Below, piece by piece: positions 25,885 through 45,887 of a stretch of 62,779 bases of DNA (position 1 is the stretch's first letter; each line of letters begins with the position of its first letter). The position numbers and the translations under genes were made by a program. Where the stretch lies: NCBI GenBank assembly GCA_034660395.1, contig JAYEJA010000054.1, positions 1 to 62,779 on the forward strand, read 5' to 3'. The notes below the pieces were generated by a model. That model was not told the origin of the DNA. It saw nothing but the letters and a program-made list of their open reading frames with translations, and did no database searches. Origin of the DNA: Actinomycetota bacterium (lineage in GTDB: Bacteria; Actinomycetota; Humimicrobiia; Humimicrobiales; Humimicrobiaceae).

Positions 25885-25913
25885 TCAAATCCACCTTTTA
25901 TATTTATAAGTAT

Positions 25914-25948
25914 ACTGCCCATAACCTTAAGTTTAAGTTATGGGCAGT
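25914..25948. terminator. Hairpin between hsp20 and the dnaJ-like gene (terminator or mRNA stabiliser)
   Basis: ACTGCCCATAAC-N11-GTTATGGGCAGT; only a weak U-tract on the coding strand. Confidence 0.55.
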
Positions 25949-25986
25949 TTATTCTATGATTATCCTAAAAACCTGCTGCAGCAACC

Positions 25987-26424: not shown

Positions 26425-26467
26425 ATAAATCCGCCTCCTTTTAAAATAGGTTTATGCCTATCATGAT

Positions 26468-28426: not shown

Positions 28427-28504
28427 AATATATACATCCTTTCTAAAATAATTTCTTTTTACAATTTAACCGTGCTAAATAACCCATTAATTCTCTATTA
28501 CATC

Positions 28505-28825
28505 CTAATGCCTTATATGCATCAGGTAATTTTTAAAACAATTAACGACATCATCCGGGCACTTGCCCAGTACCACGTTATCTCTTCTTTTTATAAGTAT
28601 TATTATTGACTTCAGGTTCATGCCCTCCTCATACATAAGCTCCCTCATATACTTGAGCCATCTTATATCCGCCTTTGAATAATATCTTTTTCTGCCTCTC
28701 CTCATGGGATAAACCAGCCTAAACTTCTCGTAATAGTACAGTGTCCTGCTGTTTACACCCAGAAATTCGGCTACCAGCTCTATCGGATAACTTTTATCAT
28801 TTTCGTCAAACAACAATACCACCAA
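28505..28825 (-). CDS. MerR-family, HspR-like heat-shock regulator
   Basis: YPIELVAEFLGVNSRTLYYYEK..RRYYS.ADI..EGMNL; first gene of the chaperone operon. Confidence 0.75.
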   Translation of the reverse strand: MVVLLFDENDKSYPIELVAEFLGVNSRTLYYYEKFRLVYPMRRGRKRYYSKADIRWLKYMRELMYEEGMNLKSIIILIKRRDNVVLGKCPDDVVNCFKNYLMHIRH

Positions 28826-31723: not shown

Positions 31724-33133
31724 TTACTTTCTGCCATCAATTAACGGCAGGCTTGCCGCAGCAATTGACTGCCCGACCCTCCTGCTGGACTCGTCCGGAA
31801 GGTTAATAGTTATCTTATCCGCGAGCCCGGGAAATTCTTCTTCTAAAACCTGCCTGGCTTTTTGCAGAATTACCTGGCCCCCTTCACCTGATGTAACCCT
31901 CCCTAAAATTAATACTGTCTCAATTTCATAAAATTGGGAATAATAAGCGATGCCGTAGCCTAAATAACAACCAATAGTATCAAAAATCTTTTTTGCCTGC
32001 TTATTCCCCCCGGTTACCATCCCCTGGATAATTTTTAGTTTCCCGGCAGGGGTGATTCCATCACCAGGATTAATACCCGCTTTTTCAGCAAGCCTTACAG
32101 CCGCAAGCTGTGAGAGATACTGGACTCCGCAACCCTTTTCACCGGACCACTCGTCAACAGGTGCATCATCGTTCAGGTCAATGGGAATAAAGGCAAGTTC
32201 GTTTAACCAGCCGTTGATATTACCTTTTTTATTTATATAGCCGCCGGCCTCACTGGATCCCATAGCAATGCCCAGCACTGCATTTTTCTTTAAAGACATG
32301 GAACCGGCCAGAGCCGTAACTTCACCATCATTTATCACTTTAAGGGGTACACCCCACTCATCCTGTATATCTAAAAAAATATTTCTTACTTTTTTATTAA
32401 ATAAATCTTCCGGAATCCCCCTGAATATGGAAGCGTTCATCACCCTGTTATTTATATATATACCTGCAGAGCTTCCCCCTATAGCATCAACACGGGGCAT
32501 ATGAGATGCAGCGTGGTGCAGCATTGACATAATTTCATGGTAATGATATCCGGGATCGGTCTTCTTACCGGGATTCCACACTATTTCCTCGCTATAAACC
32601 ACTTTGCCGTCTATAGAAGCGCTAACTTTCCTGTCACTTGCACCAAGGTCAAATCCAATCCGGCATCCGTCAAGATGTCCCCCCAGTACAATTGATTTCT
32701 TGCTGCTTGAAGGTATCCTTTCTATATCCACGCTAACAACTTCAAAAGGCTTTTCATATATACCGGACATGAACTTTGCATCAAAGGAGCGCTTTCCTTT
32801 TTCCGAATATACATTTTTTAAATGCTCGCCAATCTTTTTCGAGCCGCCAATTATTATTTTATAACCGCCGTACATCCACAAAAGTGTTTTTGCAAGCAAT
32901 TCAATATACTTAAAATTATATGAAGAAAAATCAGATTCTTCCTTGAATATCCCTGTTTCATATACCAGGACGGAATCTTCTTCCTTCTCAATACCAATCC
33001 ATAATGGAATATCCCGGCCGGTATTTTTAAGGTTTTCATTGAATGCCTTAACAAATAAAACTGCAGGCTGAAAATTATCATCAAGGGGCAGCTGTATTTT
33101 TGGTTTTACCAATGATAATAATTTTTCGCTCAT
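31724..33133 (-). CDS. ROK-family sugar kinase-like protein
   Basis: IGFDLGASD, NDGEVTALAG, GSSEAGG and NELAF motifs; directly upstream of nagA. Confidence 0.8.
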   Translation of the reverse strand: MSEKLLSLVKPKIQLPLDDNFQPAVLFVKAFNENLKNTGRDIPLWIGIEKEEDSVLVYETGIFKEESDFSSYNFKYIELLAKTLLWMYGGYKIIIGGSKKIGEHLKNVYSEKGKRSFDAKFMSGIYEKPFEVVSVDIERIPSSSKKSIVLGGHLDGCRIGFDLGASDRKVSASIDGKVVYSEEIVWNPGKKTDPGYHYHEIMSMLHHAASHMPRVDAIGGSSAGIYINNRVMNASIFRGIPEDLFNKKVRNIFLDIQDEWGVPLKVINDGEVTALAGSMSLKKNAVLGIAMGSSEAGGYINKKGNINGWLNELAFIPIDLNDDAPVDEWSGEKGCGVQYLSQLAAVRLAEKAGINPGDGITPAGKLKIIQGMVTGGNKQAKKIFDTIGCYLGYGIAYYSQFYEIETVLILGRVTSGEGGQVILQKARQVLEEEFPGLADKITINLPDESSRRVGQSIAAASLPLIDGRK

Positions 33134-33289
33134 ATTATTTCACCATCTTTCTATATAGAATTAATAAAAATTTCTGCTTTTCATTTTAATTTATTATTAT
33201 TTTACCCGATACTTTTGGGTTCAAAATGTTATAACCTCCGGACCATTAAAAATATAATTTTTCCATAATAAATTTACATTTATCAAGAA

Positions 33290-34123
33290 TCATCCTTTTA
33301 ACGCCCCTGCAGACAACCCTTTTATAAACTGGCGCGACAGAATAAAATAAAAAATAATTACGGGCAGTGAAGCCATGGCAAGTACCGAGAAAACCAGCCC
33401 GAAATTAGTTTCATACTGGCCAAACAACAGTGCCGTAGCTATAGGAATGGTTCTTGCATTATCCGACCTTATCAGCAGTAACGGGAACCAGAAGTCATTC
33501 CATATCGGTATGAAATTTATGATAACCACAGCTGCCAGTGCCGGTCGAAGTAGAGGCAGCACTATCTTAAAAAATATCTTAGCCTCGCTGCACCCATCTA
33601 TTCTTGCAGAATTACTCAGTTCCTCCGGAATCAGTCTTATAAAATCGGTAAGTACAAACACTCCAAATGGAATACCCATTGCCGTATAAACTATTATTAA
33701 GGCTGTAAGAGTATCAAATATCTTAAGACTGAGCATAATTCTGATTATCCCTATAGTCCCCAGCTTAATCGGGACTATCAGGCCTGCAATAAAATAAAAA
33801 TAAAGAAACCTGCTTCCGAAAAACTTATACTTCGCAAGCACATAAGAAATTAAGGAAGAAAGAACTACGATTATAAGGAGCGACGTAAGTGTAACTAAAA
33901 TACTATTCCTGAAATAAGTTAAATAATTAGATACCTCGAAAAGCTGCACATAGTTATCAAGATTAAAAGATTGAGGCAGACTGTAAGGGCTTGTGAATAT
34001 CTCCTCATTTTCTTTTAATGACGTAGTTATCATTAAATAAATCGGATAAAATATAGTTAAAGCATATATTGCCAAAACAACATATAAAAGTGTTTTTGTT
34101 GTCCCTCTTTTAATCTTTAGCAT
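33290..34123 (-). CDS. Carbohydrate ABC permease (MalG-like)
   Basis: ARIDGCSE (EAA motif) and WNDFWFPL. Confidence 0.92.
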   Translation of the reverse strand: MLKIKRGTTKTLLYVVLAIYALTIFYPIYLMITTSLKENEEIFTSPYSLPQSFNLDNYVQLFEVSNYLTYFRNSILVTLTSLLIIVVLSSLISYVLAKYKFFGSRFLYFYFIAGLIVPIKLGTIGIIRIMLSLKIFDTLTALIIVYTAMGIPFGVFVLTDFIRLIPEELSNSARIDGCSEAKIFFKIVLPLLRPALAAVVIINFIPIWNDFWFPLLLIRSDNARTIPIATALLFGQYETNFGLVFSVLAMASLPVIIFYFILSRQFIKGLSAGALKG

Positions 34124-34181
34124 TTATACCTTCCTCTGCCAGCTTTCGCCATATTGTCATATAGTATTCATCTCTGTTCAT

Positions 34182-35120
34182 TTATCTGTCTCCTTCTTCC
34201 CTTGCTCCCATACTCTGCATTCTAAACAGCATCATTAAAACAATAACCCCTATAGTCACTATAAGTACTATCATGGTAGCCACGGTTGCTCCCATGCCCA
34301 TACCCCAGCCGCCTCTTCCGATCGGGAAAAATGCTGCTCTGTAAAACAGGGAGCCAAACAGGTCGGTACCATATTGCGGGTTGGCATATGGGCTTGTCAT
34401 GGCATAAACAATATCAAATTGTGTAAAATCACCTATAAAAATCAGTATCGTTACTATTCCCACAATAGGCAGAATTGAAGGAAAAATTATGTATCTAATC
34501 TCGGCTAACGGTCCGACGCCATCAATCCTTGCTGCTTCTAAAACTTCTTTATCTATAGCATCTATGCCTGCAGTATAAAAGATAATTGACGTACCCAGGA
34601 ACTGCCAGCTTGTAACAACTGCTATTACTACCAGTGCTATCGATGGGGTACCGAGCCAGGGTCTTACCAGAAACCCCAGCCCCATGACTTCAAGGAATTT
34701 ATCAAAAATTCCCCAGACAGGATTTAGAATTAACGTAAATAAAAACCCCGCTACTATTACTGATAATGTAGTGGGCAGGAAACTTATCCTCCGGAAAAAT
34801 GTATTTCCGGAAAACTTCCTCGTAACCATGATTGCTATAAAAAAACCAATGACATTCTGGAAAAAAGTCACTATCAAGAAAAATATCACGGTGTTTTTAA
34901 ATGCATTAAAAAATCTTTCGCTGTAAATATCCCTGGTAAAAAGCTGTATATAATTCTGAAATCCAACAAACTCTTTAGGAACTATTCCGGGGCCGCCAAA
35001 CAAACTAAAAAACATTGCATGTAATATCGGAACAACCAAAAAAACAGTATATACAACAAATCCACCCGCCAGGAAAAGAAGAATAAAATAATTTTTTTTC
35101 TTCCTGTAAGTCTCTGCCAT
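34182..35120 (-). CDS. Carbohydrate ABC permease (MalF-like)
   Basis: FVGFQNY and EAARIDGVG motifs. Confidence 0.92.
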   Translation of the reverse strand: MAETYRKKKNYFILLFLAGGFVVYTVFLVVPILHAMFFSLFGGPGIVPKEFVGFQNYIQLFTRDIYSERFFNAFKNTVIFFLIVTFFQNVIGFFIAIMVTRKFSGNTFFRRISFLPTTLSVIVAGFLFTLILNPVWGIFDKFLEVMGLGFLVRPWLGTPSIALVVIAVVTSWQFLGTSIIFYTAGIDAIDKEVLEAARIDGVGPLAEIRYIIFPSILPIVGIVTILIFIGDFTQFDIVYAMTSPYANPQYGTDLFGSLFYRAAFFPIGRGGWGMGMGATVATMIVLIVTIGVIVLMMLFRMQSMGAREEGDR

Positions 35121-35201
35121 AAATTTCTCCTGATATCTAATAAATCTTTCTACACTTCTTAATATTAATAATAATTAAATGTTCGTTATTAAACCCGTAG
35201 T

Positions 35202-35236
35202 GGCTGTCCTGGCAGAATGAATCTGCCAGGACAGCC
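35202..35236. other. Strong hairpin between binding-protein gene 1 and its permease (likely mRNA stabiliser)
   Basis: GGCTGTCCTGGCAGA-N5-TCTGCCAGGACAGCC; no clear U-tract on the coding strand. Confidence 0.7.
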
Positions 35237-35270
35237 CCATAAACTACAGGAGGCTAAAGTATCCTGCATA

Positions 35271-36580
35271 CTACTGCATCGGCTCATACCATTGTTCCAG
35301 CCCATCCTGTACATGAGCTGCTGCTTCTTCTGGAGTGTACTCATCAGTTAGAAGACCGGCCATAGCTTCAACCATCAAATCATACCCTGATGGCACACCT
35401 GCCATCATCTTCTCCCAGGTAGTTCTTATGGTTACATCTGCATCACCTGCTGCTGCAATCATTTCTGATGCCAGTTCATTTGATATTGTGTAATCACCAG
35501 GTACATATGAGAAGAAGCCCGGTGTTTCTTCCATCATTATTGCCGCAAACTCCGGTGTAGCAAGCCAGTTTGCCAGCGCTAGTGCAGCATCCATATTTTC
35601 TGAATCCTTATTTACACCTACGCCGTAATCAACATGGAAGCAGTACTGGAGTGTATCACCTTCATTTTCAACCGATGGCTGGAACCAGCCAATATCAGTT
35701 AATCCAAGTCCCTCAAAAGTGGATATTTCCCATGAACCGCCTATATACATTGCTGCCTGGCCTGTTCCAAACAGCTGCTGCTGACCAACATAATCAATAG
35801 ATTCATAACCATCCGGGAAATACGGCTGCAGCTGGTCCATAGCCGCAAATGCATCTACAAACGGCTGGTCGGTCATCTTCATTTCTCCAGCAACAAGCGC
35901 CTGCCTGCTTTCCTCGCCGCCATAGAAATTAGCGCCCAGTCCGCTGTACATAACCTCATACAGGTCCCACCTATCATTTGTACCCTGGGCAATTACAGTC
36001 TCTCCATTATCTTTCAAAGTCTGGCAAACATCTATAAATTCTGCCCATGTTGCCGGCTCTGTCAGGTCATACTTATCAAAAATAGCAGTATTGTAATAAA
36101 CGCCATGAGTTACACCGGCCATGGGTACTCCATATATCACGCCGTCATCCGTAGCCCAGGCATTAATAGCTGCATCAGGAAAGTCTGACAATGCTGAGAC
36201 TTCATCATTTAATTCAGCCAGATAACCTGCATCATAGACAGCTTCACCATCATCAAATGAACGCAGGAACATTATATCCGGCCCCACACCTGTTTCCAGA
36301 GAAGACATTAACTGTGCATCATACTCTGTATTCTTTGTCGGCTGGAACTCAACTGTTACATTTGGATATTTTTCAGTAAAATTGGCAAGCATTGAATCCC
36401 ACAAAGCAATATCCTCGGTTCTCCAGCTACCAAACTCAATTGTTCCTTCTATAGCTTCCGTAGTTTCAACTTCTGCTGTTTCTTCCTCTCCAGCTGCTTC
36501 CTTACATCCTGCAAGCGAAAAGGTTGCTATCATTGAAACAGTTAGAATTATTACCAGAAACAACCATAATGACTTTTCAT
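35271..36580 (-). CDS. Sugar ABC substrate-binding lipoprotein 1; SD-led ATG36580 is out of frame (A4 versus A5 in the paralog)
   Basis: LAGC lipobox and SBP_bac_1-like sequence. ATGAAAAGTCA here versus ATGAAAAAGTCA at 41806. Confidence 0.88.
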
Positions 36581-36819
36581 TTTTTATACACCCTCCTCTT
36601 ATAATTTTACTTATCCACAAAATTCTAATAAAATCTTCTCTGAGATTTTTTTAGGGCTTTAGTTCCAGCAGAACTTAAGGTATGCCTGAGCAAATCTCAC
36701 TTTTTTTTTCATAAAATCCTCCTTTCTTTACTCCTGTATTAATCAGGAAAGATAGCTTTCTGCTTTCTTATAATCAATCACCCCCTATTTCTATTAAGAA
36801 ATTCTTTTCCTTATTGTAT
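36480..36819. repeat. Direct repeat copy 1 (~340 bp): leader, micro-ORF and SBP signal peptide
   Basis: Near-identical to 41705-42044 by eye alignment. Confidence 0.92.
36659..36712 (-). CDS. Micro-ORF MKKKVRFAQAYLKFCWN (17 aa) in the SBP1 leader
   Basis: Strong SD AAGGAGG, then ATG, A9 tract, TAA at 36661-36659. Confidence 0.5.
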   Translation of the reverse strand: MKKKVRFAQAYLKFCWN

Positions 36820-36853
36820 ATAAATTTTAAAAAATCCTTTTAAAATTACTTTT

Positions 36854-38437
36854 TCAATTTTTTAAGCTTACAGGTAAAGTCCCCTCAGCTTCGTATTCAC
36901 CAGTCATTATCTCTGCTGCAACCTTCAGATTAGATGGACTACAATCATATATTGCTAAAAACGCATCTATTCCACTTAAAGACTGCATATTAAAGGGGTT
37001 ATCAGATATAACTATTACAGGAATATCACTATCCTGAAGCTCTTTAACTATTTTTATTTGATGGGAGTCATTTAAAGAACTATAAATACAGACAATTACC
37101 AGATCTACATATTCCGGCAAAGAAAGCGGCTCGCTATTGCCTAATATAATATGTTCAACATCATCTATACCTTTTTTCCTCAAGAAATTAACCAGTAAGT
37201 CATTATTTTCGATCTCATCTTCTGCAAGTGATAATTTCTTAACCGGAAAATCTATAACAGTCACTTTCTTATATTTATTTTTTATGGGAATTAAATTATT
37301 CTCATTCCTGACAAGCGTTACACCTGCCTTTGAGACTTCATACGCAATTTTTTCTTCTTTTTCCCTGTTAATTTTTTTGTAATCAGCTAAAGGTATATTT
37401 TTAAGCCCAATCCTCTCACTCTTAAGTTTTAATATTCTTAATACAGAATCCTCTATACGCTCCATATTAATTCTGCCTTTCTTTACTGCTTTAATTGTTT
37501 CTTTTATGGCTGCTTTTTGCCTGCCCGGACTATGTGATATTAGAACTATGTCGGCACCTGCTTCAATAGCCATAACTGATCCCTCTACAGTTCCAAAATT
37601 ATCAGAAATTGCCTTCATTTCCATACAATCAGTTATAATCACGCCCTTATAAGCCATTTTATTTCTAAGTAAATCTGTTAAAATACTATAAGACAGCGTT
37701 GTGGGTATTCCTTTTTTAGATTCCAGAGCAGGTACATAAATATGAGCTGTCATAATACTATCTACTCCAGCTTTTACCGCTTCTTTAAATGGGTAAATTT
37801 CCAGTTTTTCCAGGTGCTCACTGCTAAACTTAATAACGGGAAGCTCAAGGTGTGAATCAGCAACTGTACTTCCATGTCCCGGAAAATGCTTGGCACATGC
37901 AATAACTCCCTCTTTTTGCATACCTTTTATAAAAGCTGCTCCCATTTTTGCAACCAGATTAGCATCCCCGCCAAATGACCTTGTCCCTATATGCATATTC
38001 TGTGGATTACTATTTATATCCATCACAGGTGCTAGGTCCATATTAATTCCAACTGCCTTTAATTGTAACGCAACCTGCCTGCCTACCTTCTCTGCAAAAG
38101 ACGGACTTCCTGTTGCTCCTATTAACATATTACCGGGAAAATGTGTTCCTCCCGACAGACGACTTACCCTGCCTCCTTCCTGATCAGTAGATATCAAAAG
38201 CGGTAAATGAAGCTTTTTATCCATAGCCAATTTTTGTAAATCATTTGACAAATTGGATACTTGTTTGAGTGACTCTATATTACGTCTGAAATATATCACT
38301 CCTCCTACATGGTAATCTTCTATTATCTCTTTTATATCAGAATCTATTCCAGTTCCCTTAAAACCAACCTGAAACATCTGCCCTACTTTCTCTTCAAGCG
38401 TCATTCTAGAAAATATTTTTTCTGTAGTAACATTCAT
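36854..38437 (-). CDS. GH3 beta-N-acetylhexosaminidase (NagZ-like, two-domain)
   Basis: DQEGGRV, KHFPGHG, DSHLELP and ITDCMEM motifs. Confidence 0.9.
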   Translation of the reverse strand: MNVTTEKIFSRMTLEEKVGQMFQVGFKGTGIDSDIKEIIEDYHVGGVIYFRRNIESLKQVSNLSNDLQKLAMDKKLHLPLLISTDQEGGRVSRLSGGTHFPGNMLIGATGSPSFAEKVGRQVALQLKAVGINMDLAPVMDINSNPQNMHIGTRSFGGDANLVAKMGAAFIKGMQKEGVIACAKHFPGHGSTVADSHLELPVIKFSSEHLEKLEIYPFKEAVKAGVDSIMTAHIYVPALESKKGIPTTLSYSILTDLLRNKMAYKGVIITDCMEMKAISDNFGTVEGSVMAIEAGADIVLISHSPGRQKAAIKETIKAVKKGRINMERIEDSVLRILKLKSERIGLKNIPLADYKKINREKEEKIAYEVSKAGVTLVRNENNLIPIKNKYKKVTVIDFPVKKLSLAEDEIENNDLLVNFLRKKGIDDVEHIILGNSEPLSLPEYVDLVIVCIYSSLNDSHQIKIVKELQDSDIPVIVISDNPFNMQSLSGIDAFLAIYDCSPSNLKVAAEIMTGEYEAEGTLPVSLKN

Positions 38438-38557
38438 TTTATTTACCTTTTTTCTAATTTCTAATTAAATCTATAATTTATAAAAATCTATAATTTATCC
38501 TTTCCATTTTCTTTCAAAAATAGACTTGCCTCTATATTGACTCTATTCCAAAATAAA

Positions 38558-39415
38558 TTATCCTTTTAGTGCTCCCTGGGCAGCAAATCCACGTGCAATC
38601 TGCCTGTGGAATAATGCATACAATAAAATCATTGGCGACATCCCCATAACCAGTGCTGCAAACTGCATTCCATACTCGGTTGCAAGAGGGCCCGAGAATG
38701 CGTAAATGCCGACAGGCAAACTTCTTGAGGCATCAGAACTGGTAAAGACCAGAGCAAGCATAAATTCATTCCAGCATGCAAGAGCAGTAAAAATAAGCAT
38801 GGTAACCATAACGGGTTTACACATAGGCAAAATAATTCTAAAAAAAATAGTAAAATAAGAAGCACCGTCAATCTGCGCAGATTCAATAACGGAGTCTGGT
38901 ATCACCTTTATAAATTCTGTACCCAGGTAAATTGCAAGAGGCATATTAATTGCTGTATAAATAAGTATTATTCCTATGCGTGTATCTCTGAGCCCAATCC
39001 GCGTCATGGAAATAAAAAGCGGAATTAAAATTGCCTGTATGGTAATAAGCAGGCCTATTAAAAAGGAATTATACAGAAACGGAGTTGCTTTATTTTTTAT
39101 TTTTGCAAATGCAAATGAAGCCATCATTGAAAGGAAAATAACCAATCCTGTGGAAACAAATGTATATATAACACTGTTTATGACATATTTATCCAGTTTT
39201 CCTTTTATTACCGCCTGGATGTAATTGCTAAAAGTTGGGTTCTCAGGCAATGCAAAACTGTCTCTTATAATTTCAAGTTGCGGTTTAAAAGAGGAATAAA
39301 AAACCCAGATTAATGGATATAGAGTAAGTAATGTAAACACTATAAACACTGCATAAGCCAGTACCTTACTAAGATTATTTTGCTTCGCTCTCGTAACCAG
39401 ACTATCTTCATACAT
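38558..39415 (-). CDS. Carbohydrate ABC permease (MalG-like)
   Basis: ESAQIDGAS and WNEFMLA motifs. Confidence 0.92.
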   Translation of the reverse strand: MYEDSLVTRAKQNNLSKVLAYAVFIVFTLLTLYPLIWVFYSSFKPQLEIIRDSFALPENPTFSNYIQAVIKGKLDKYVINSVIYTFVSTGLVIFLSMMASFAFAKIKNKATPFLYNSFLIGLLITIQAILIPLFISMTRIGLRDTRIGIILIYTAINMPLAIYLGTEFIKVIPDSVIESAQIDGASYFTIFFRIILPMCKPVMVTMLIFTALACWNEFMLALVFTSSDASRSLPVGIYAFSGPLATEYGMQFAALVMGMSPMILLYALFHRQIARGFAAQGALKG

Positions 39416-39420
39416 AATTT

Positions 39421-40314
39421 TTACTCTCCCATAACATTTGCTTTTCTCTGAAAAACCCTGATTATGATTATTAAAATAATTGATAATATTACCATAACTG
39501 TAGAAATAGCAGAGCCCACACCATAATCGTAATTTACAAAGGCATAATTATACATATAAATTGATAATAAATTAGTATAATAAGCAGGTCCGCCGCCCGT
39601 CATGGCAAATATTAAATCAAAACTTCTTAAGCTCCCTGCTATAGCTAAAATTGCAGTTAATGCTATCACCCCGGTAAGCTGGGGAACAACTATCTTCCTG
39701 AAAATTTGCCCCTCACTCGCACCATCAATCTGCGCCGCTTCAATTATATTTGGGTCTACATTTTGAAGATTTGCCAGAAAAATAATAAGATAATATCCTG
39801 TATACATCCATAACAGGACAAATGCAATCGGAATCATTGCAAACTGCTTACTATTCATAATAGTAAAAGCAAAATTTGGATTATTGGTAATCTTTTGAAT
39901 AATCACTGTTATAGCTCCTATAGGAGAGAACATTTTTGACCATAAAATCCCTATAATTATTGTAGAAATAACAGTTGGTAAAAAAACCATAGCCTGGAAG
40001 AAGCCGGAGCGCTTTACAAGCTTTCTGTATATAAGATATGCGAGTCCAAATCCCAGTGGTATCTGACCAAAGACAGATACAAAAATTACAAAGAAATTGT
40101 TTCTCATTGAAAACCAGAAGACGGGATCTCTAAATATTTTTATATAATTCGCCAGACCTGTCCAGATTGCTGTATTTTTATAAATATTATAATCTGTGAA
40201 ACTCAAACCTATTGATGACGCAATTGGAAATGCTATTATTAAAAGATACACCCCCAGTGCCGGTAATACAAAAGCAAGATATATAAGTATTTTCTTAAAC
40301 TTTTCACTTTTCAT
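39421..40314 (-). CDS. Carbohydrate ABC permease (MalF-like)
   Basis: WTGLANY and EAAQIDGASE motifs. Confidence 0.92.
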   Translation of the reverse strand: MKSEKFKKILIYLAFVLPALGVYLLIIAFPIASSIGLSFTDYNIYKNTAIWTGLANYIKIFRDPVFWFSMRNNFFVIFVSVFGQIPLGFGLAYLIYRKLVKRSGFFQAMVFLPTVISTIIIGILWSKMFSPIGAITVIIQKITNNPNFAFTIMNSKQFAMIPIAFVLLWMYTGYYLIIFLANLQNVDPNIIEAAQIDGASEGQIFRKIVVPQLTGVIALTAILAIAGSLRSFDLIFAMTGGGPAYYTNLLSIYMYNYAFVNYDYGVGSAISTVMVILSIILIIIIRVFQRKANVMGE

Positions 40315-40347
40315 AATTGATATATTTAATCACCTGTTATTTTTATT

Positions 40348-40375
40348 AATGGGCACCGTTTAAACGGTGCCCATT
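40348..40375. other. Perfect 28-bp palindrome after binding-protein gene 2
   Basis: AATGGGCACCGTTT|AAACGGTGCCCATT. Confidence 0.8.
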
Positions 40376-40433
40376 TTCCAATGCTGTTACCTTGCAGCTT
40401 CTCATTTTCCAATGCTGTTACCTTGCAGCTTCT
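40372..40433. repeat. Exact 31-bp tandem duplication spanning the SBP2 stop codon
   Basis: CATTTTCCAATGCTGTTACCTTGCAGCTTCT at 40372-40402 and 40403-40433. Confidence 0.9.
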
Positions 40434-41806
40434 ATATCCGCTGCCAGATCCTCGGGAGTGGTATTGCCCAGTGCTAACTCCTGAAGACCATTATTTAATA
40501 CAGTTATAGGATCCCCGGTAATTTTGTCATCAAGTACATATGTACCGGGATGTTCTCCATAGAAAGCACCTCTTTTTACAGCAAGTGGCTCTATATCATA
40601 GCCCGATATATCCATCAAGTAAGAAGGAATCATTCCCTGCTCAAGTAACCTGATCTCTCCTCCTTCGGGTCCTGCAAAGAACGAAATCCATTTCCATGCA
40701 GCATCAGCTTTTTCTTCTGAAAGGCCTTTTTTCATACCAAAACCAGTTGCTGCTACCACAGAAGTAGAGCTGGACGGACCTACCTGACCTTCAATATCTG
40801 GAAATACAGCAAGTTCAAAATCTTCCTGTTCTTCTGCTGTCAGTAGAGGAGCTACTGCTCCTACCCTCCAGTCCCCATCAATCATAAATGGGCTTCTACC
40901 AGTCGCAAACAGGTTTGGACCATCTCCATATTCAAGCTGGGTACTTTGAGGCGGAAGCAGTCCGTTATCCCACAGTTCTTTTATAAATACAAGTGAGTCA
41001 ACAAACTCCTGGTCAGTAAATGATGCTTCTTCTGCAATCAGTGCATCCAGCCAGTCCTGGCCGGCTATTCTTCCTACAATAGTACTGAAGAGACAGGACT
41101 GCATAACCCAGGATGATTTATTGGGCATCATAATAGGGTAAAGACCAGCATCCGTTATAGGCTCTGCCATATCAACAAGTTCGCTATATGTAGCAGGCAT
41201 GCTGAGCCCAAGTGAATCCAGTAAAGCAGTATTAACATACATTACATGAGTTGCAGTGACTGCTATGGGAAGTTCCATAAGCTTACCGTCCCACTGAGGT
41301 GCAACAGCAGCAGGAGCGTAATTATCTTTATCCTCGCCTAAATATGGATAAAGGTCTGCAATAAGTTCATTCTCATACAACTCGGCACTTTTTCCACCCG
41401 GCCACAGATACATAACATCAGGCAAATCTCCTGCAGCGGCAAGAGCAGCCAGTTTCTGATGATATGCTTCATCAAAACTATTCTCAATTGTCAGTGTAAT
41501 ATTGGGATATTTTTCCTGAAATTTCTCTACAGTCTCATCCCAGGCGGCAGCTTCCGGGGAAGTAATATCAAGGTAGTTAAGCACTGTTAGTTCTACTTCC
41601 GGCCCCAGTTCAACTTCTTCTTCCTCTCCAGCTGCTTCTTCTACGGCTTCTTCTTCCTCTCCAGCTGCTTCTTCCTCTCCAGCTTCTTCTTCCTCTCCAG
41701 CTGCTTCTTCCTCTCCAGCTGCTTCCTTACATCCTGCAAGCGAAAAGGTTGCTATCATTGAAACAGTTAGAATTATTACCAGAAACAACCATAATGACTT
41801 TTTCAT
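40418..41806 (-). CDS. Sugar ABC substrate-binding lipoprotein 2
   Basis: LAGC lipobox, acidic (A)AGEEE repeat linker, SBP_bac_1-like sequence. Confidence 0.92.
   Translation of the reverse strand: MKKSLWLFLVIILTVSMIATFSLAGCKEAAGEEEAAGEEEEAGEEEAAGEEEEAVEEAAGEEEEVELGPEVELTVLNYLDITSPEAAAWDETVEKFQEKYPNITLTIENSFDEAYHQKLAALAAAGDLPDVMYLWPGGKSAELYENELIADLYPYLGEDKDNYAPAAVAPQWDGKLMELPIAVTATHVMYVNTALLDSLGLSMPATYSELVDMAEPITDAGLYPIMMPNKSSWVMQSCLFSTIVGRIAGQDWLDALIAEEASFTDQEFVDSLVFIKELWDNGLLPPQSTQLEYGDGPNLFATGRSPFMIDGDWRVGAVAPLLTAEEQEDFELAVFPDIEGQVGPSSSTSVVAATGFGMKKGLSEEKADAAWKWISFFAGPEGGEIRLLEQGMIPSYLMDISGYDIEPLAVKRGAFYGEHPGTYVLDDKITGDPITVLNNGLQELALGNTTPEDLAADIEAAR
41614..41726 (-). repeat. Intragenic tandem repeats encoding (E)AAGEEE five times
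   Basis: Core GCTGGAGAGGAAGAA repeated; only one unit in SBP1. Confidence 0.85.
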
Positions 41807-42044
41807 TTTTTATACACCCTCCTCTTATAATTTTACTTATCCACAAAATTCTAATAAAATCTTCTCTGAGATTTGTTTAGGGCTTTAGTTCCAGCAGAAC
41901 TTAAGGTATGCCTGAGCAAATCTCACTTTTTTTTCATAAAACCCTCCTTTCTTTACTCCTGTATTAACCAGGAAAGACAGCTTTCTGCTTTTTTATAATC
42001 AATCACCCCCTATTTCTATTAAGAAATTCTTTTCTTTATTGTAT
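41705..42044. repeat. Direct repeat copy 2 (~340 bp); micro-ORF cut to MKKK* (41937-41923) by an A8 tract
   Basis: Near-identical to 36480-36819. Confidence 0.92.
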
Positions 42045-42077
42045 GTAATATTTCATATTCCATGTTTTATTCACCTT

Positions 42078-43292
42078 TCATGAAGAGACGGAAAAATGAA
42101 AGATTTCCTTTAAGGGAATAGCCGCAGAAGCAATTATCCTAAAATCCTTCCCCAGGGAAATAGAGCATATTTTCAATCTGTCAGTAAGAATAGATAAGGC
42201 CTTTCCTAAAACTACTTTTTTTACTTCGGAAATAAGGAAATGGTTATTATATGCAAGTTTACCCCCGAGAATAATTACATCCGGATTTATCATATTAACC
42301 AGATTGACAATTCCTATTGCGAGATATTTAGCTGTACTGGTAGTAATTTCCTTCGCCAATTTATCATTTTTATCCAGAGCTTCGCGATAAATATAGGGTG
42401 TAACTTTTTTGATAACTCCCTTTGACAGCTTAATCATCATTGTATCTCTGCCAGTCTCTACAGAATCCACTATTTTAGAGTAAACGGCAGACCAGTTAAT
42501 ATAATTTTCAATGCAGCCCCTGTTTCCGCAGCCGCAGGCAATACCATTTATATCCATGCTTGTATGGCCGAACTCTCCCGTACCGCCGCTGTGTCCGCGA
42601 ACAATATGGTCATTTACTATAATCCCGGCTCCTACACCATCACCAATAGTAATATAGACCAGATTCTTCAATTTCTTATACTTACCAAATCTTTTTTCCG
42701 CCAGTACAATTGCATTTGTATCATTTTCAAGCCAGACTTTAAGACTGAATTCCTTCTCGACTATCTCTTTTAACGGTACGTTTTTTAATTTCAGTTTTGT
42801 ATTCTCATGAATTACTGCCTTATCAACACTTATAATTCCAGGAGAGGTAATAGAAATACCAATACATCTTTTTAAATCTTCCTTAGGATATACCTTTATA
42901 AACTTACTTATTGATTCTAAGAAGTAATCAATAAACTTTTTACCTGTTAACTTATTTACTGGATAAATTTCCTGCCTCTTTATTTTAGCTTCCAGGTTGG
43001 CTTCCGCTATTTTTATGTAAGAATTGGTGATTGCAATTGCAATAATAAATTTACTATCAGAATAAAAACGCAGCAATATCGGTTTTCTTCCACCGCTTGA
43101 TTTTCCTATCCCCTCTTCAATTACAAGTCCCTGCTTTATTAATTTTTTGACTGCCACAGTTACCGTCGTAGAACTAATTTTATTTTTCTTTGCTATTTCA
43201 CTTCGGGAGATGGGGCCATAATTTTGTATGGTTTTTAGAATTATAGATCTATTCAGTTCCTGAATTAATTTTAAATCACCTGTCCTATGCAT
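42078..43292 (-). CDS. ROK-family transcriptional repressor (NagC/XylR-like)
   Basis: N-terminal HTH (GPISRSEIA...SGGRKP), ENDTNA, GEFGH and [10 protein letters not shown]. Confidence 0.93.
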
Positions 43293-44729: not shown

Positions 44730-45887
44730 CTACAACTTATACCTCAGGACAGCGCCAATGCTTCCCGCTTTTATCAGTTTATCATTCCCCTCTACATCCA
44801 CTATCTCACAGCCCTGGCCCAGTGCGTCTTCAACAATTTCATCAACTATATCATTATAAAATACCATCTCTCCCCCGCAATAAGGGCACCTGTCCTTCTT
44901 CTCCGTGGTTAGATAGCTGCATCCCCTGCAAACATAACCGCTGTGAGTGAACTTACTTTCGTATATCAAAACCCTTATCTGTTCTGATAATAAGGATTTT
45001 ATAGTGGCACCAATTCCCATTACACCCATCCTGTTTGGATTATACTCATTTAATAACCTGTCAATAAGGTCATTTTTTGCCTTACTCTCAAAATCCTCAA
45101 TAACCCTTTTCGCCTTCCCGGTAATCGTTGAGATTTTTGAATCCGGCTCCTCATCAATACTCCCTATATATACCGATTTCAGGTAACTATGCATATAATT
45201 CTTAAATCCCGGGATAATCTCTTTTCTCCCTGACAATATAAGGTAATCAAATTTCTTTTCTCTAAAAAGAGCCATCACATTTTCGTTCAGCATCTTAAAA
45301 AAGTGGTGTAATTTCTCTTCCAGTCTCCCTGTAAGTTTTTTCTCCCTTAATACTGCCTGGCTTCTGTAATTTACCTTCGAGGGGACATCGCTTATAAAAG
45401 CGCCCAGATATTCATTAAGCTCTCCCAGATAAATAGAATAAATCTGCGCTTTTTCCCTGTCTATCATTAAAATTCCATATTTTTTTGAATTATTAACAAG
45501 GGCCCTTATATTCCTGGTGTACGGCTTGGGGTCAATTATTATCCTGGACTTCATTATTATCGGTATCCTGAATTCCTCCCACATGCCGCCGCCGGAAGAA
45601 AAGATTGCCAGTGTCCTGGCTGAATCTGCCCGGAACTTATCATTTACAAACGACTTTGCCTTTTCGTATATTGTATATATTTCCTTCTTTTCATGTTTAT
45701 CAATGCTTTCATCCTTATCCAGCTTTTCTTTACTTCTGACAATCATTGAATTCAGCTCTGTCTGGTAATTCTTTTTAGAAACCCTGCTCCGGTCAACCAG
45801 GAGGTATATGCTTACTACCGGTTTTCCTGTTGTCTTATAATTCAGTATTTTTTCCAGACCTGAAGTTTTTACTTCCTCATTTTTCAT
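44730..45887 (-). CDS. Bacterial aeRF1/eRF1-fold protein (baeRF family) with C-terminal Zn ribbon, no GGQ
   Basis: VVSIYL N domain, YGILMIDREKAQIY RNase H-like M domain, YLILSG, CRGC/CPYC, DEIVEDALGQG..GSIGAVLRY. Confidence 0.8.
   Translation of the reverse strand: MKNEEVKTSGLEKILNYKTTGKPVVSIYLLVDRSRVSKKNYQTELNSMIVRSKEKLDKDESIDKHEKKEIYTIYEKAKSFVNDKFRADSARTLAIFSSGGGMWEEFRIPIIMKSRIIIDPKPYTRNIRALVNNSKKYGILMIDREKAQIYSIYLGELNEYLGAFISDVPSKVNYRSQAVLREKKLTGRLEEKLHHFFKMLNENVMALFREKKFDYLILSGRKEIIPGFKNYMHSYLKSVYIGSIDEEPDSKISTITGKAKRVIEDFESKAKNDLIDRLLNEYNPNRMGVMGIGATIKSLLSEQIRVLIYESKFTHSGYVCRGCSYLTTEKKDRCPYCGGEMVFYNDIVDEIVEDALGQGCEIVDVEGNDKLIKAGSIGAVLRYKL

What the first reader, a model, noticed from the sequence alone, without database searches (positions are those of the whole stretch)
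36480..42044. Duplicated ~340-bp leader + micro-ORF + signal-peptide cassette heading two different sugar-binding lipoprotein genes
Seen: 36480-36819 and 41705-42044 are near-identical. They cover ~240 nt upstream of the start plus the signal peptide, lipobox and KEAAGEEE; beyond that the two SBPs are highly divergent. The leader has conserved hairpins (TCCTG-N7-CAGGA, AGTTC-N5-GAACT), a long-range TGAGATTT/AAATCTCA pairing, and a micro-ORF behind a strong AAGGAGG. Inference: a portable regulatory and export module kept homogeneous by recent duplication or gene conversion, possibly an undescribed cis-regulatory RNA or leader-peptide system for amino-sugar ABC operons.
Basis: partly seen in the sequence, partly recalled or inferred. 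Interest (0 to 1): 0.75.

Follow-up and report, generated by a model that had tools for sequence, protein, structure and literature searches.

The report
Shared leader cassette heading sugar-binding genes
Two neighbouring sugar-uptake operons start with the same ~340-bp 'head' (leader, tiny ORF, export signal), which turns out to be a widespread, undescribed cassette in an uncultured low-GC brine/sediment lineage and probably also encodes a small antisense RNA.

Summary
The duplication is real. Window 36480-36822 and 41705-42047 are about 98% identical, and independent public assemblies show the shared part at double depth.

It is a local instance of a large family, not a private duplication. 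A DNA-pattern scan found about 75 homologous copies in metagenomes, almost all in front of lipoprotein substrate-binding genes. Three unrelated SBP folds and two GH3 genes carry it, so it is not specific to amino sugars.

- **Micro-ORF:** it is normally 3-5 codons and stops at the foot of the hairpin. The 17-codon form in copy A is an outlier.
- **SD1:** this sequence (GAAAGGAGG), with an upstream sense hairpin in the window's leader type, also survives in distant orthologues that lack everything else. That fits a 5' mRNA stabiliser.
- **Long-range pairing:** it is a hairpin with a 15-bp stem, and its substitutions keep pairing better on the opposite (window +) strand.
- **Opposite strand:** there the hairpin sits 6 nt after a conserved TTTACT-17-TAAAAT promoter and before a U tract, which looks like a ~68-nt cis-antisense RNA gene.

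No Rfam family matches. No strand-resolved RNA data exist, so the antisense RNA and the mechanism are inferred. I call it a new variant of known kinds, of moderate to high interest.

The parts
36480..36822 (-). Repeat copy A: leader A plus the first 34 codons of SBP-A
   Evidence: Alignment. 2x-depth unitig and bubble.
41705..42047 (-). Repeat copy B: leader B plus the first 34 codons of SBP-B
36732..36748 (-). hp0 of copy A (TCCTG-N7-CAGGA), a sense-strand hairpin just upstream of SD1
   Evidence: Read. Homologous hairpins covary (CTTCC..GGAAG, CTTCCTTT..AAAGGGAG) and carry G.U on the sense strand. The region folds better on the sense strand in 43/56 leaders.
41957..41973 (-). hp0 of copy B (TCCTG-N7-CAGGA)
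36718..36726 (-). SD1 of copy A, GAAAGGAGG (STAB-SD-like)
   Evidence: An SD-like sequence is present in 68/71 homologues and GGAGG in 55/71. It is kept in distant orthologues that lack the hairpin.
41943..41951 (-). SD1 of copy B, GAAAGGAGG
36659..36712 (-). Micro-ORF of copy A: MKKKVRFAQAYLKFCWN-stop. It reads into the hairpin because of A9.
   Evidence: A9 is confirmed by a separate 119-nt unitig. It is an outlier in the family.
41923..41937 (-). Micro-ORF of copy B: MKKK-stop. The stop TGA is the first three bases of the hairpin.
   Evidence: This is the typical family form.
36641..36709 (+). Predicted antisense RNA A: hairpin 36641-36699 (15-bp lower stem), then C and T9 (36701-36709)
   Evidence: Covariance model hit 36637-36713(+), 65.9 bits. 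Strand tests. The window has T at 36649 where public contigs have G.
41867..41934 (+). Predicted antisense RNA B: hairpin 41867-41925, then C and T8 (41927-41934)
   Evidence: Covariance model hit 41863-41939(+), 72.3 bits. MFE is -27.1 on the + strand against -16.7 kcal/mol on the - strand.
36606..36634 (+). Promoter-like TTTACT-17-TAAAAT of antisense RNA A. It ends 6 nt before the hairpin.
   Evidence: Conserved across the family.
41832..41860 (+). Promoter-like TTTACT-17-TAAAAT of antisense RNA B
36591..36600 (-). SD2 of SBP-A (AAGAGGAGGG)
41817..41826 (-). SD2 of SBP-B (AAGAGGAGGG)
35271..36580 (-). SBP-A gene (SBP_bac_1). In the window its ATG at 36580 is out of frame because of a missing base in the T run 36574-36577.
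40418..41806 (-). SBP-B gene (SBP_bac_1): lipoprotein signal peptide, acidic (AAGEEE)n linker, mature domain
42078..43292 (-). ROK/HTH regulator (NagC-like), co-directional and directly upstream of leader B
   Evidence: Synteny is kept in orthologous loci.
36854..38437 (-). GH3 beta-N-acetylhexosaminidase, last gene of operon B and directly upstream of leader A
33160..36822 (-). Inserted block relative to L003: leader A, SBP-A and two permeases. The left edge is approximate.

Best explanation
The repeat is two copies of a lineage-wide 5' cassette. This uncultured low-GC lineage places it in front of its lipoprotein substrate-binding genes. The cassette works on both strands.

**Sense strand (window -).** The SBP mRNA, probably co-transcribed with the upstream gene, carries these parts in order:
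- a small hairpin (hp0);
- a perfect Shine-Dalgarno sequence, GAAAGGAGG (SD1);
- an ATG and a 3-5-codon ORF whose stop lies at the foot of a long hairpin;
- about 50 nt further on, the real ribosome-binding site, the lipoprotein signal peptide and an acidic linker.

Ribosomes held at SD1 and the mini-ORF, together with hp0, are inferred to protect the 5' end of the SBP message. This would work as STAB-SD and the hbs leader do against 5' exonucleases, letting the SBP be made in excess over the other operon products.

**Antisense strand (window +).** A sigma-70-type promoter (TTTACT-17-TAAAAT) fires 6-7 nt before the same hairpin, and a U tract follows it. The result would be an RNA of about 68 nt, fully complementary to the leader between the mini-ORF and SD2. 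I infer that it pairs with the leader and triggers cleavage or blocks the mini-ORF. That would cut the message off from its stabiliser and set a threshold on SBP expression.

**Origin of the window copies.** Their near-identity comes from recent duplication or gene conversion, when a second ABC block was inserted behind the GH3 gene.

**Shown:** the duplication, the family, its modular spread, the conserved parts and the strand bias of the hairpin. **Inferred:** that the antisense RNA exists, and what the antisense RNA and the mini-ORF actually do.
For: **The duplication is real.**

**The family.**
- The pattern scan returned 83 stretches, about 75 of them homologous.
- 57 of 59 lipoprotein-like ORFs in those loci have the element.
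- Downstream genes include three unrelated SBP folds.
- All lipoprotein-type SBP-B orthologues found through protein homology alone carry it (also L001-L003).

**Cassette swap.** Mature domains 80-68% identical carry a Sec signal peptide. Their leader keeps hp0 + SD1 but has no ATG, no hairpin and no TTTACT/TAAAAT. The insertion edge coincides with the repeat edge.

**Mini-ORF.** Where an SD-linked start could be scored (about 60 of 79 leaders), roughly 45 open an ORF of 3-5 codons that stops at 0 or -3 to -6 relative to the stem. In 43 of 55 leaders the ATG lies 4-6 nt after GGAGG.

**hp0 is a sense structure.** G.U pairs fall on the sense strand. The sense fold is better in 43/56.

**The long hairpin favours the antisense strand.**
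- In the six variable pairs, A.C/C.A outnumber G.U 60 to 16 on the sense strand.
- Cells paired: 94.6% antisense against 89.2% sense. Unpaired cells in the variable pairs: 47 against 97 of 366.
- MFE is lower on the antisense strand in 44/62, mean -19.5 against -16.4 kcal/mol.
- Two of the three arm substitutions seen at pattern-fixed positions (T1>C, G9>A) give G.U only on the antisense strand.

**Antisense promoter and terminator.**
- TTTACT lies exactly 17 nt from TAAAAT in 44/73, and an extended -10 TG occurs in 15 more.
- The best promoter score is at least 9/12 in 58/73 on the antisense strand, against 6/73 on the sense strand.
- The spacing to the hairpin is fixed (N = 5 in 66/74 although 3-9 was allowed).
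- On average 6.9 of the 9 nt after the stem are U.
- Copies that lost AGATTT still keep TAAAAT.

**Transcription.** The region is present in RNA-derived contigs that run continuously from the SBP coding part through the hairpin to at least 300 nt upstream.

**Literature.**
- STAB-SD (PMC12970973).
- A strong SD blocking RNase J1 on hbs mRNA (PMC5737220).
- DonS-type cis-antisense RNAs at sugar-uptake loci (PMC7366714).
Against: - **No strand-resolved RNA data.** The RNA runs are direction-less contigs and may contain DNA. They show no excess depth over the hairpin, and no RNA run holds the window itself.
- **Ascertainment.** Most family members were found with a pattern that fixed 24 positions, including 9+8 arm bases and part of TAAAAT. 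The invariance of those positions is therefore partly built in.
- **Non-independence.** The sequences are related, so counts and the Wilcoxon p-values are not independent events.
- **Promoter-like hexamers are common in AT-rich DNA.** The tool's shuffles give 1-2 such sites per 600 nt.
- **Another reading of the A.C excess.** It could reflect selection to weaken the sense hairpin.
- **Atypical terminator.** The hairpin has a long AU-rich stem and was not called by the terminator scan.
- **No sense promoter could be located.**
- **One reverse case.** One lineage (L021/L033) has a G.U on the sense strand in the fixed part of the stem.
Confidence: 0.5

Rival explanations
1. Sense-only leader device. 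The mini-ORF and the hairpin act together on the mRNA. A ribosome loaded at SD1 translates 3-5 codons and stops at the foot of the stem. There it melts the hairpin, or is handed across its base to the SBP start, in the manner of a shunt or termination-reinitiation. This would tune SBP translation or stability. The antisense promoter and U tract would be by-products of AT-rich sequence and of lysine codons.
For: - The ATG and the hairpin occur together in the window's lineage and are both absent from the distant orthologues.
- The stop codon sits at 0 to -6 from the stem in most copies.
- Blocking the 5' arm lowers the predicted accessibility of SD2 from 0.69 to 0.45, in 45/65 leaders.
- RNA contigs show that the sense transcript spans the hairpin.
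Against: - Stem substitutions favour the other strand.
- The sense fold is weak (z = -1.04; mean -16.4 kcal/mol).
- The AGTAAA and ATTTTA blocks at a fixed 17-nt spacing have no sense-strand explanation. The sense pairings ATTTTA/TAAAAT and AAATCT/AGATTT are lost in variants that keep the antisense hexamers.
- The predicted SD2 effect is modest and depends on the folding model.
Confidence: 0.25
2. Metabolite-binding riboswitch, or another sugar-specific cis-regulatory RNA, for GlcNAc/chitobiose operons.
For: - The window operons are GlcNAc-related: NagZ-type GH3, NagA and a NagC-like ROK.
- The leader is long and conserved.
Against: - The same leader precedes SBPs of three unrelated folds. Neighbouring regulators and enzymes are diverse.
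- The only conserved structure is a simple hairpin with a variable tip of variable length (31-47 nt between the fixed arm segments). There is no conserved multi-helix core.
- There is no Rfam match, and the fold is not above shuffles.
- There is no sense terminator and no sequestered SD2.
Confidence: 0.03
3. DNA operator. The inverted repeat TGAGATTTGTT.../...AACAAATCTCA would be bound by the adjacent ROK repressor or by a global regulator.
For: - The arms are highly conserved in sequence.
- A ROK regulator lies directly upstream in the window and in its orthologues.
- ROK operators are palindromes (own knowledge).
Against: - The distance between the arms varies from 31 to 47 nt, which changes both phase and distance.
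- The element also occurs next to genes that look LacI-, GntR-like or non-regulatory, judged by eye from the translations.
- Orthologous ROK-SBP loci in the other lineage lack the repeat altogether, although the ROK gene is conserved.
- The mismatches show a strand bias that duplex DNA recognition would not produce.
Confidence: 0.05
4. A selfish miniature inverted-repeat element, or neutral concerted evolution of paralogue 5' ends, with no regulatory role for the hairpin.
For: - The element has 15-bp terminal inverted repeats and is a discrete insertion relative to the older hp0-SD1 leader.
- Identical hairpins occur in front of different genes.
- Degenerate orphan copies exist in L046 and L071.
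Against: - It is always in the same position and orientation between SD1 and SD2.
- It was not found anywhere else in 755 kb.
- No target-site duplications are seen.
- Flanking features (ATG, A tract, -10, -35) are conserved at fixed spacing.
Confidence: 0.07
5. Assembly artefact: a collapsed or chimeric repeat.
For: The window's copy A has two differences (a 1-nt deletion at 36573/4 and T at 36649) that the public contigs do not share.
Against: - The shared part has 2x depth.
- Two single-depth variant unitigs exist.
- Contigs join both unique flanks in three runs.
- The same architecture is seen in dozens of independent assemblies.
Confidence: 0.01

Closest known systems
DonS-type cis-antisense small RNAs of Bacteroides polysaccharide utilisation loci (Cao et al. 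2016, as described in PMC7366714)
   Same: A family of short (78-128 nt) RNAs is encoded on the opposite strand at the 5' end of the first uptake gene of many different sugar-utilisation loci in one genome. These RNAs repress their locus. Here the predicted RNA is about 68 nt and sits at the 5' end of many SBP genes.
   Different: - The phylum and the transporter type differ (SusC/TonB there, ABC SBP here).
- Here the RNA lies wholly inside the 5' leader and consists of one long hairpin.
- It is embedded between a decoy SD/mini-ORF and the real start.
- It travels with a signal-peptide cassette.
- No sequence relationship was tested or is expected, and expression is unproven here.
STAB-SD of Bacillus thuringiensis cry3Aa, and ribosome-protected leaders such as B. 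subtilis hbs and aprE
   Same: [quoted passage not shown] In those systems a bound ribosome blocks 5'-to-3' decay. By my own recollection of Agaisse & Lereclus 1996, the STAB-SD sequence is GAAAGGAGG, which is identical to SD1.
   Different: - In the window's lineage SD1 is followed by an ATG and 3-5 codons, whereas STAB-SD is not translated.
- The 5' end of the mature mRNA is unknown.
- The RNase set of this organism is unknown.
- The effect on stability is untested.
Counter-transcript (antisense) control with a leader peptide in plasmid replication: R1 CopA/CopT-tap-repA and ColIb-P9 Inc RNA-repY-repZ (own knowledge)
   Same: A constitutive antisense hairpin RNA of about 70-90 nt targets a leader. 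That leader also holds a short ORF whose translation governs expression of the downstream gene.
   Different: - The order of parts differs. Here the mini-ORF comes before the target hairpin, and it neither overlaps nor is coupled to the downstream start.
- Here the setting is chromosomal sugar-transport genes.
- The weak + strand hit to ctRNA_pT181 (18.5 bits, E = 9.3) is not significant.
Conserved 5' cassettes of lipoprotein gene families: Mycoplasma vlp/vsp and the Borrelia upstream homology box (own knowledge)
   Same: Divergent mature proteins share a nearly identical upstream region plus a lipoprotein signal peptide. These are kept alike by recombination. A homopolymeric A tract lies in the upstream region.
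   Different: - Those families serve surface antigen variation, and their poly-A tracts cause phase switching.
- Here the genes are nutrient-binding proteins.
- The A8/A9 difference is fixed per copy, and no length variation within a run was seen.
Short-ORF-plus-stem ribosome shunt of caulimoviruses (own knowledge)
   Same: A very short ORF ends a few nucleotides before a long stable stem, and the main ORF lies beyond it.
   Different: That mechanism belongs to eukaryotic scanning ribosomes, and no bacterial example is established. The resemblance is purely architectural.

Membership tests
Any Rfam 15 family (riboswitches, leaders, sRNAs) | Match to a curated covariance model at its gathering score | tested here: not met
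   The whole window gave only tRNAs. Copy A at E<=10 gave only insignificant hits. Twelve related loci gave none. The L068 leader at E<=1 gave none.
Riboswitch (general) | Conserved multi-helix aptamer core with covariation, plus an expression platform (a sense terminator or a sequestered SD) | tested here: not met
   The structure is a single hairpin with a variable tip. No sense terminator was found. SD2 is predicted to be mostly open (0.69). The associated genes span unrelated specificities.
STAB-SD / ribosome-protected 5' leader | SD sequence complementary to the 16S 3' end, located in the 5' UTR well upstream of the gene's own RBS | tested here: met
   GAAAGGAGG lies about 135 nt upstream of the SBP ATG. 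An SD-like sequence occurs in 68/71 leaders. It is also kept in distant orthologues.
STAB-SD / ribosome-protected 5' leader | The SD lies near the 5' end of the mature, stable mRNA and prolongs its half-life | not testable with these tools
   RNA contigs cover the region but give neither ends nor direction.
STAB-SD / ribosome-protected 5' leader | The SD is not used to start a protein | tested here: inconclusive
   Distant orthologues have no ATG after SD1. In the window's lineage an ATG follows and opens only 3-5 codons.
cis-antisense small RNA (DonS-like or counter-transcript-like) | Own promoter on the strand opposite to the target leader | tested here: met
   Met by sequence only. TTTACT-17-TAAAAT was found. 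It is conserved with a variable spacer of fixed length, or replaced by TGnTAAAAT.
cis-antisense small RNA (DonS-like or counter-transcript-like) | Defined 3' end: a hairpin followed by a U tract | tested here: met
   Met by sequence only. There is a 15-bp stem followed by 6.9 U in 9 nt on average. The stem pairs better on this strand. The simple terminator scan did not call it.
cis-antisense small RNA (DonS-like or counter-transcript-like) | The RNA is detectable and affects the target | not testable with these tools
   There is no RNA run for the window. The other runs are direction-less contigs.
Translation attenuation leaders (erm/cat type) | Leader peptide with a stalling sequence, and alternative hairpins that mask the downstream RBS | tested here: not met
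   The peptide is 3-5 residues long and not conserved. SD2 is not masked in the predicted ensemble.
Transcription attenuator (trp/T-box type) | Intrinsic terminator on the sense strand between the leader and the gene | tested here: not met
   No sense terminator-like site was found. RNA contigs run through.
MITE / REP-like repeat | Copies dispersed at unrelated sites, with terminal inverted repeats and target-site duplications | tested here: not met
   Inverted repeats are present. However, every copy lies between SD1 and SD2 of a gene start, and no target duplications are seen.
Phase-variable lipoprotein cassette (vlp-like) | Homopolymer length varies within a population and switches expression | tested here: not met
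   A8 and A9 each sit on a single-depth unitig, and the contigs report no further length variants. Contigs do drop rare variants.

The most novel reading that the evidence does not exclude
The hairpin genes could form a multi-copy family of antisense RNAs. They share an identical lower stem but differ at the tip, with one copy per sugar-uptake operon and possibly dozens per genome. Because the stems are common, each RNA could pair with the leaders of the other operons as well as its own. A strongly induced leader could also soak up the shared pool of antisense RNA.

The cassette would then wire all ABC sugar importers of the cell into one post-transcriptional network. Such a network could set a hierarchy or a threshold among sugars. 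The SD1/mini-ORF ribosome would act as the competitor of the antisense RNA.

A variant of this reading is that the mini-ORF plus stem is a bacterial counterpart of a ribosome shunt.
Probability: 0.12. Interest if true: 0.85.

Novelty: new variant of a known kind. Interest (0 to 1): 0.6.

Why it matters
**What it would show.** A whole lineage of uncultured sediment and brine bacteria equips its sugar-binding proteins with one exchangeable 'head'. That head bundles mRNA protection, a decoy translation start, a candidate antisense RNA, the ribosome-binding site and the export and lipidation signal.

**How it is used.** Newly acquired transporter genes appear to be refitted with this head. An 80%-identical mature domain carries a different leader and signal peptide in another lineage.

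**Comparison with known systems.**
- It is a clear case of modular evolution of expression and export signals.
- It would extend cis-antisense control of sugar uptake, so far known from Bacteroides PULs, to ABC transporters of a different phylum.

**Practical consequences.**
- It defines a new RNA motif for annotation, seeded by about 75 sequences and a working covariance model.
- It flags a likely assembly error at the start of SBP-A.

Tried and rejected
- **Rfam searches.** Gathering and permissive thresholds on the window and on 13 related stretches found nothing.
- **Single-sequence folding of the sense leader.** It is not better than shuffles.
- **First protein search.** The window's own signal peptide found a single hit, but that hit opened the comparative trail.
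- **Exact look-up of SBP-B.** It is not on record.
- **Genome-collection scan.** Only two close relatives turned up.
- **nhmmer and a covariance model over 755 kb.** These looked for diverged copies that would give unbiased covariation. Only 3 extra copies were found, and none in the window.
- **RNA evidence.**
  - No RNA run holds the window.
  - Runs holding a relative are direction-less contigs.
  - Depth there is dominated by k-mers shared among paralogues, so neither transcript ends nor an abundant small RNA could be read off.
- **Sense promoter.** Inspection by eye of the leader upstream of SD1 found no conserved -35/-10 pair. The scans of the wider regions found no sense-strand site, and the stretch between the hairpin and SD2 rarely scores 9/12 on the sense strand. 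The GGGGGTGAT block is conserved but unexplained.
- **Alternative sense pairings.** AAATCT/AGATTT and ATTTTA/TAAAAT were rejected because variants lose them while keeping the antisense hexamers.
- **DNA operator reading.** Rejected because of the variable arm spacing and the absence of the repeat from orthologous ROK loci.
- **MITE reading.** Rejected because of the fixed context.
- **Phase variation at the A tracts.** Not supported.
- **Predicted change of SD2 accessibility.** Kept only as a weak hint.

Full report
**1. The observation**

Window 36480-36822 and 41705-42047 align base for base, with 5 substitutions and 2 one-base homopolymer indels. All genes of the region lie on the - strand. 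In reading order they are:
- a ROK/HTH regulator (43292-42078);
- leader B, then SBP-B (41806-40418);
- two permeases;
- a GH3 beta-N-acetylhexosaminidase (38437-36854);
- leader A, then SBP-A (to 35271);
- two permeases;
- a 469-aa protein;
- NagA.

The repeat covers about 240 nt of leader plus MKKSLWLFLVIILTVSMIATFSLAGC-KEAAGEEE. After that the two SBPs share only 28% identity.

The repeat is not an assembly artefact. I laid Logan contigs of three brine-metagenome runs that hold this DNA on both copies:
- The shared 230 nt form one unitig at twice the depth of the flanks.
- The next 118/119 nt split into two single-depth unitigs that match copies B and A.
- Unitigs connect to both unique flanks.

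The same contigs correct the window in one respect. Copy A of the window lacks a base just after the SBP-A ATG, which throws the ATG out of frame (MKSHYGCFW-stop), and it has T at 36649. All public contigs carry the extra base and a G, including a 532-nt contig anchored in SBP-A-specific sequence. The SBP-A frameshift is therefore an error or a rare variant of the window sequence. The A9/A8 difference inside the micro-ORF is real.

**2. It is a family**

The window's signal peptide found one protein in the 5.8-billion-protein collection. Its contig, L001, has a homologous leader. A genome scan with SBP-B gave two more loci, L002 and L003.

I took three blocks from those sequences, TGAGATTTG, AAATCTCA and GATTTTA, and scanned metagenome contigs. 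The scan returned 83 stretches. About 75 are clear homologues, and one contig holds up to three copies.

Of 76 distinct downstream proteins:
- 54 are SBP_bac_1;
- 16 are Peripla_BP_4;
- 3 are SBP_bac_5;
- 2 are GH3 enzymes.

The SBPs start with nearly the same lipoprotein signal peptide (M1, K2, K3, G25 and C26 are at least 90% conserved). The gene upstream is almost always co-directional but varies. By eye from the translations it includes ROK, LacI- and GntR-type regulators, NagB- and SIS-like enzymes and others; only ROK was confirmed with Pfam.

The element is therefore not tied to amino sugars, although the window's two operons are GlcNAc-related. In the fetched loci, 57 of 59 lipoprotein-like ORFs have the element upstream.

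**3. The cassette is exchangeable**

A protein search with the mature part of SBP-B, followed by contig look-ups, gave orthologous loci found without any reference to the leader. Synteny ROK-SBP-permease-permease-GH3 is kept.
- **Lipoprotein-type orthologues (457-467 aa).** All carry the full element.
- **The 420-425-aa orthologues.** These are 80-68% identical, and their records are labelled Atribacteria or Actinobacteria RBG_*_35_*. They have a Sec-type signal peptide joined directly to the same mature domain. Their leader keeps only a small hairpin (hp0) and GAGAAAGGAGG. It has no ATG, no long hairpin and no TTTACT/TAAAAT blocks.

One and the same mature protein is thus headed by different 5' cassettes in different lineages.

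Within the window, the block leader A + SBP-A + two permeases is an insertion relative to L003. In L003 the GH3 gene is followed directly by the homologue of the 469-aa gene (74% identity). The upstream edge of the insertion is exactly the edge of the repeat.

Orthologous leaders in relatives are far more diverged (three-way mean column identity 77%) than the two window copies (about 98-99%).

**4. Anatomy on the sense strand**

Conservation begins at SD1 (GAAAGGAGG).
- An SD-like sequence is present in 68 of 71 leaders, and GGAGG in 55.
- An ATG follows 4-6 nt later in 43 of those 55.
- The ORF it opens is 3-5 codons in most copies (MVKEK, MTK, MAK, MRLK, MKKK, MGIK and others).
- Its stop is either the TGA that begins the hairpin or a TAA 3-6 nt before it.
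- The peptide itself is not conserved. About eight copies, including window copy A (17 codons), read into the hairpin.

Upstream of SD1, one large group of leaders has hp0. This group includes the window and the distant orthologues. The stem of hp0 covaries (TCCTG/CAGGA, CTTCC/GGAAG, CTTCCTTT/AAAGGGAG) and carries G.U pairs on the sense strand. That region folds better on the sense strand in 43 of 56 cases.

A 5' hairpin followed by a perfect SD far from the real start is the layout of known Gram-positive mRNA stabilisers: STAB-SD of cry3Aa (PMC12970973) and the hbs leader, where a ribosome on a strong SD stops RNase J1 (PMC5737220). From memory, the STAB-SD sequence is identical to SD1.

RNA-derived contigs of four metatranscriptomes cover a related locus (L068) without a break, from the SBP coding part through the hairpin to at least 300 nt upstream. 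The sense message therefore very probably contains the whole leader. I found no convincing sense promoter by eye upstream of SD1, the scans show no sense-strand site, and in some orthologues only about 30 nt separate the ROK stop from hp0. This suggests co-transcription with the upstream gene and processing.

**5. Anatomy on the other strand**

The 'long-range pairing' is the lower 15 bp of a hairpin: TGAGATTTGYTYAGG / CCYAAACAAATCTCA. The segment between the two fixed arm blocks runs from 31 to 47 nt and varies freely in sequence. Such variable spacing argues against a protein-bound DNA palindrome and for intramolecular pairing.

The departures from Watson-Crick pairing are lopsided:
- In the six variable pairs, 60 cells are A.C or C.A on the sense strand, against 16 G.U.
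- On the tool's count, 89.2% of cells pair on the sense strand and 94.6% on the antisense strand.
- Unpaired cells in the variable pairs number 97 on the sense strand against 47 on the antisense strand.
- Predicted stability is higher for the antisense strand in 44 of 62 distinct hairpins. For window copy B it is -27.1 against -16.7 kcal/mol.
- Among loci found without the DNA pattern, the two arm substitutions seen (T1>C in L097, G9>A in L101) both keep pairing only on the antisense strand.
- hp0 shows the opposite bias, so the test is not simply a composition effect.

On that strand the hairpin is framed by the signals of a small gene:
- **Promoter.** TTTACT-17-TAAAAT was found by the scan in both window copies. 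TTTACT is kept at exactly 17 nt in 44 of 73 leaders although the spacer varies, and it is replaced by an extended -10 (TGnTAAAAT) in 15 others.
- **Spacing.** A fixed 6 nt separates the -10 from the stem (N = 5 in 66 of 74, although the pattern allowed 3-9).
- **Tail.** The tail after the stem averages 6.9 U in 9 nt. The micro-ORF's A run is the complement of this tail.
- **Comparison of strands.** In the same 62-nt region a promoter score of 9/12 or better is reached in 58 of 73 leaders on the antisense strand and in 6 of 73 on the sense strand.
- **Variants.** Copies that lost the G of AGATTTTA keep TAAAAT. The variant AGTAAACAAT keeps TTTACT while destroying a possible sense -10.

The predicted product is an RNA of about 68 nt (window + strand 36641-36709 and 41867-34). 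It is complementary to the leader from the end of the mini-ORF to about 50 nt before the SBP start. A covariance model of it scores 65.9 and 72.3 bits on the two window copies and finds nothing else in the window.

**6. How it most likely works**

*Shown:*
- the duplication;
- the family and its modular spread;
- the conserved SD1, ATG and short ORF;
- the sense hairpin hp0;
- the antisense bias of the long hairpin;
- its conserved flanking hexamers and U tract.

*Inferred:*
- Ribosomes at SD1 and the mini-ORF, with hp0, protect the 5' end of the SBP message, so that the binding protein outnumbers the other operon products.
- The antisense RNA pairs with the leader and exposes it to cleavage or blocks the mini-ORF. 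This would remove that protection and impose a threshold on expression.
- The ATG appeared together with the hairpin. One possible reason is that a translating ribosome can still occupy SD1 despite the adjacent stem.

I put about 0.5 on this composite model and about 0.9 on the 'portable cassette' part alone.

The main rival (0.25) is a sense-only device in which the mini-ORF ribosome and the hairpin tune SBP translation. A folding experiment gives it a weak hint: SD2 accessibility falls from 0.69 to 0.45 when the 5' arm is blocked. The other rivals are unlikely, for the reasons listed in their entries:
- riboswitch: 0.03;
- DNA operator: 0.05;
- selfish repeat: 0.07;
- artefact: 0.01.

**7. 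Comparison with what is known**

No Rfam 15 family matches.
- **Closest system in function.** This is the DonS family of cis-antisense RNAs at the 5' end of susC genes in many Bacteroides sugar-utilisation loci (PMC7366714).
- **Closest for the sense part.** STAB-SD and ribosome-protected leaders.
- **Closest in architecture.** The antisense-plus-leader-peptide circuits of plasmid replication, and the shared 5' cassettes of Mycoplasma and Borrelia lipoprotein families (own knowledge).

It is not a tested member of any of these. It combines their features in a new arrangement and a new setting, so I rate it a new variant of known kinds.

**8. Limits**

- Most family members were found with an exact pattern, so 24 positions could not vary.
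- The sequences are related, so counts are not independent events.
- All RNA evidence is direction-less and may include DNA.
- Promoter-like hexamers are common in AT-rich DNA.
- The organism is known only from metagenomes. Its GC is 38.8%, and public records of relatives are labelled Actinomycetota or Atribacteria.

Noticed in passing
window 36573-36580: In the window the SBP-A start codon is out of frame, because the T run has 4 bases instead of 5. Public contigs from three runs have the intact frame, and also G instead of T at 36649. This is probably a consensus or polishing error in the window sequence.
   Followed up: yes
window 33160-36822 vs L003 10880-11010: The second ABC block (leader A, SBP-A, two permeases) is absent from the syntenic locus L003. 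There GH3 is followed directly by the homologue of the 469-aa gene. The insertion starts exactly at the repeat boundary.
   Followed up: yes
window 41617-41725: An 18-nt tandem repeat (6.2 copies, 85% matches) encodes the acidic (AAGEEE)n linker of SBP-B. Linker length and sequence differ between orthologues. The Sec-type orthologues have no linker at all.
   Followed up: partly
window 31724-33133 (-): A 469-aa protein has no Pfam or NCBIfam hit. It is conserved next to GH3 in L003 (74% identity). By eye it carries ROK/sugar-kinase-like motifs (GFDLGASD, INDGEVTALAG), so it may be a divergent sugar kinase of the GlcNAc pathway.
   Followed up: partly
L089-L096 (e.g. L090 2354-2501): Distant orthologous loci keep hp0 + GAGAAAGGAGG in a short leader directly after the ROK stop. 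Two of them have TTG-AAA-TAA in place of the ATG mini-ORF. The hp0 + SD module may be a more widespread leader type in its own right.
   Followed up: partly
L019 579-720 and L075: Here the element precedes a GH3 gene rather than an SBP. Similarity ends just after the hairpin, so the TTTACT block and the usual SD2 and signal peptide are missing.
   Followed up: partly
L071 (rc 1761-1822) and L046 (rc 6823-6884): These are orphan or degenerate copies. The hairpin has a decayed SD1/ATG and no SBP start follows. In L071 a strong TTGACA/TATTAT sense promoter comes next.
   Followed up: no
window 36777-36785 and 42002-42010 (-): A second SD-like block, GGGGGTGAT (GGGAGGTGAT in relatives), lies about 50 nt upstream of SD1. 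It is conserved in one leader type. Its role is unexplained: no consistent start codon or promoter fits it.
   Followed up: partly
window 56843-60355 (-): The ribonucleotide reductase large subunit (1170 aa) is interrupted by an intein with a LAGLIDADG homing-endonuclease domain.
   Followed up: no
window 22228-28825 (-): A heat-shock cluster runs MerR-family (HspR-like) regulator, DnaK, Hsp20, DnaJ, ClpB. I recall this arrangement as typical of HspR-controlled operons.
   Followed up: no
window 52995-54224 (+): A DDE transposase gene (DDE_Tnp_1, weak hit) lies between the feoAB/iron-repressor genes and an ABC-2 exporter pair.
   Followed up: no
window 15644-16070 (-) and 5047-5120 (-): A cluster of five tRNA genes (Phe, Asp, Val, Glu, Lys), plus a separate tRNA-Gln.
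   Followed up: no
window 44730-45887 (-): A 385-aa protein matches bacterial archaeo-eukaryotic release-factor-like family 10 (baeRF). It lies next to nrdR and plsY.
   Followed up: no
L002, L003, P0027, P0028, P0032: Public records label close relatives inconsistently: Actinomycetota bacterium, Actinobacteria bacterium RBG_13_35_12 and Candidatus Atribacteria. The taxonomic placement of this low-GC lineage is unsettled in the record titles.
   Followed up: no
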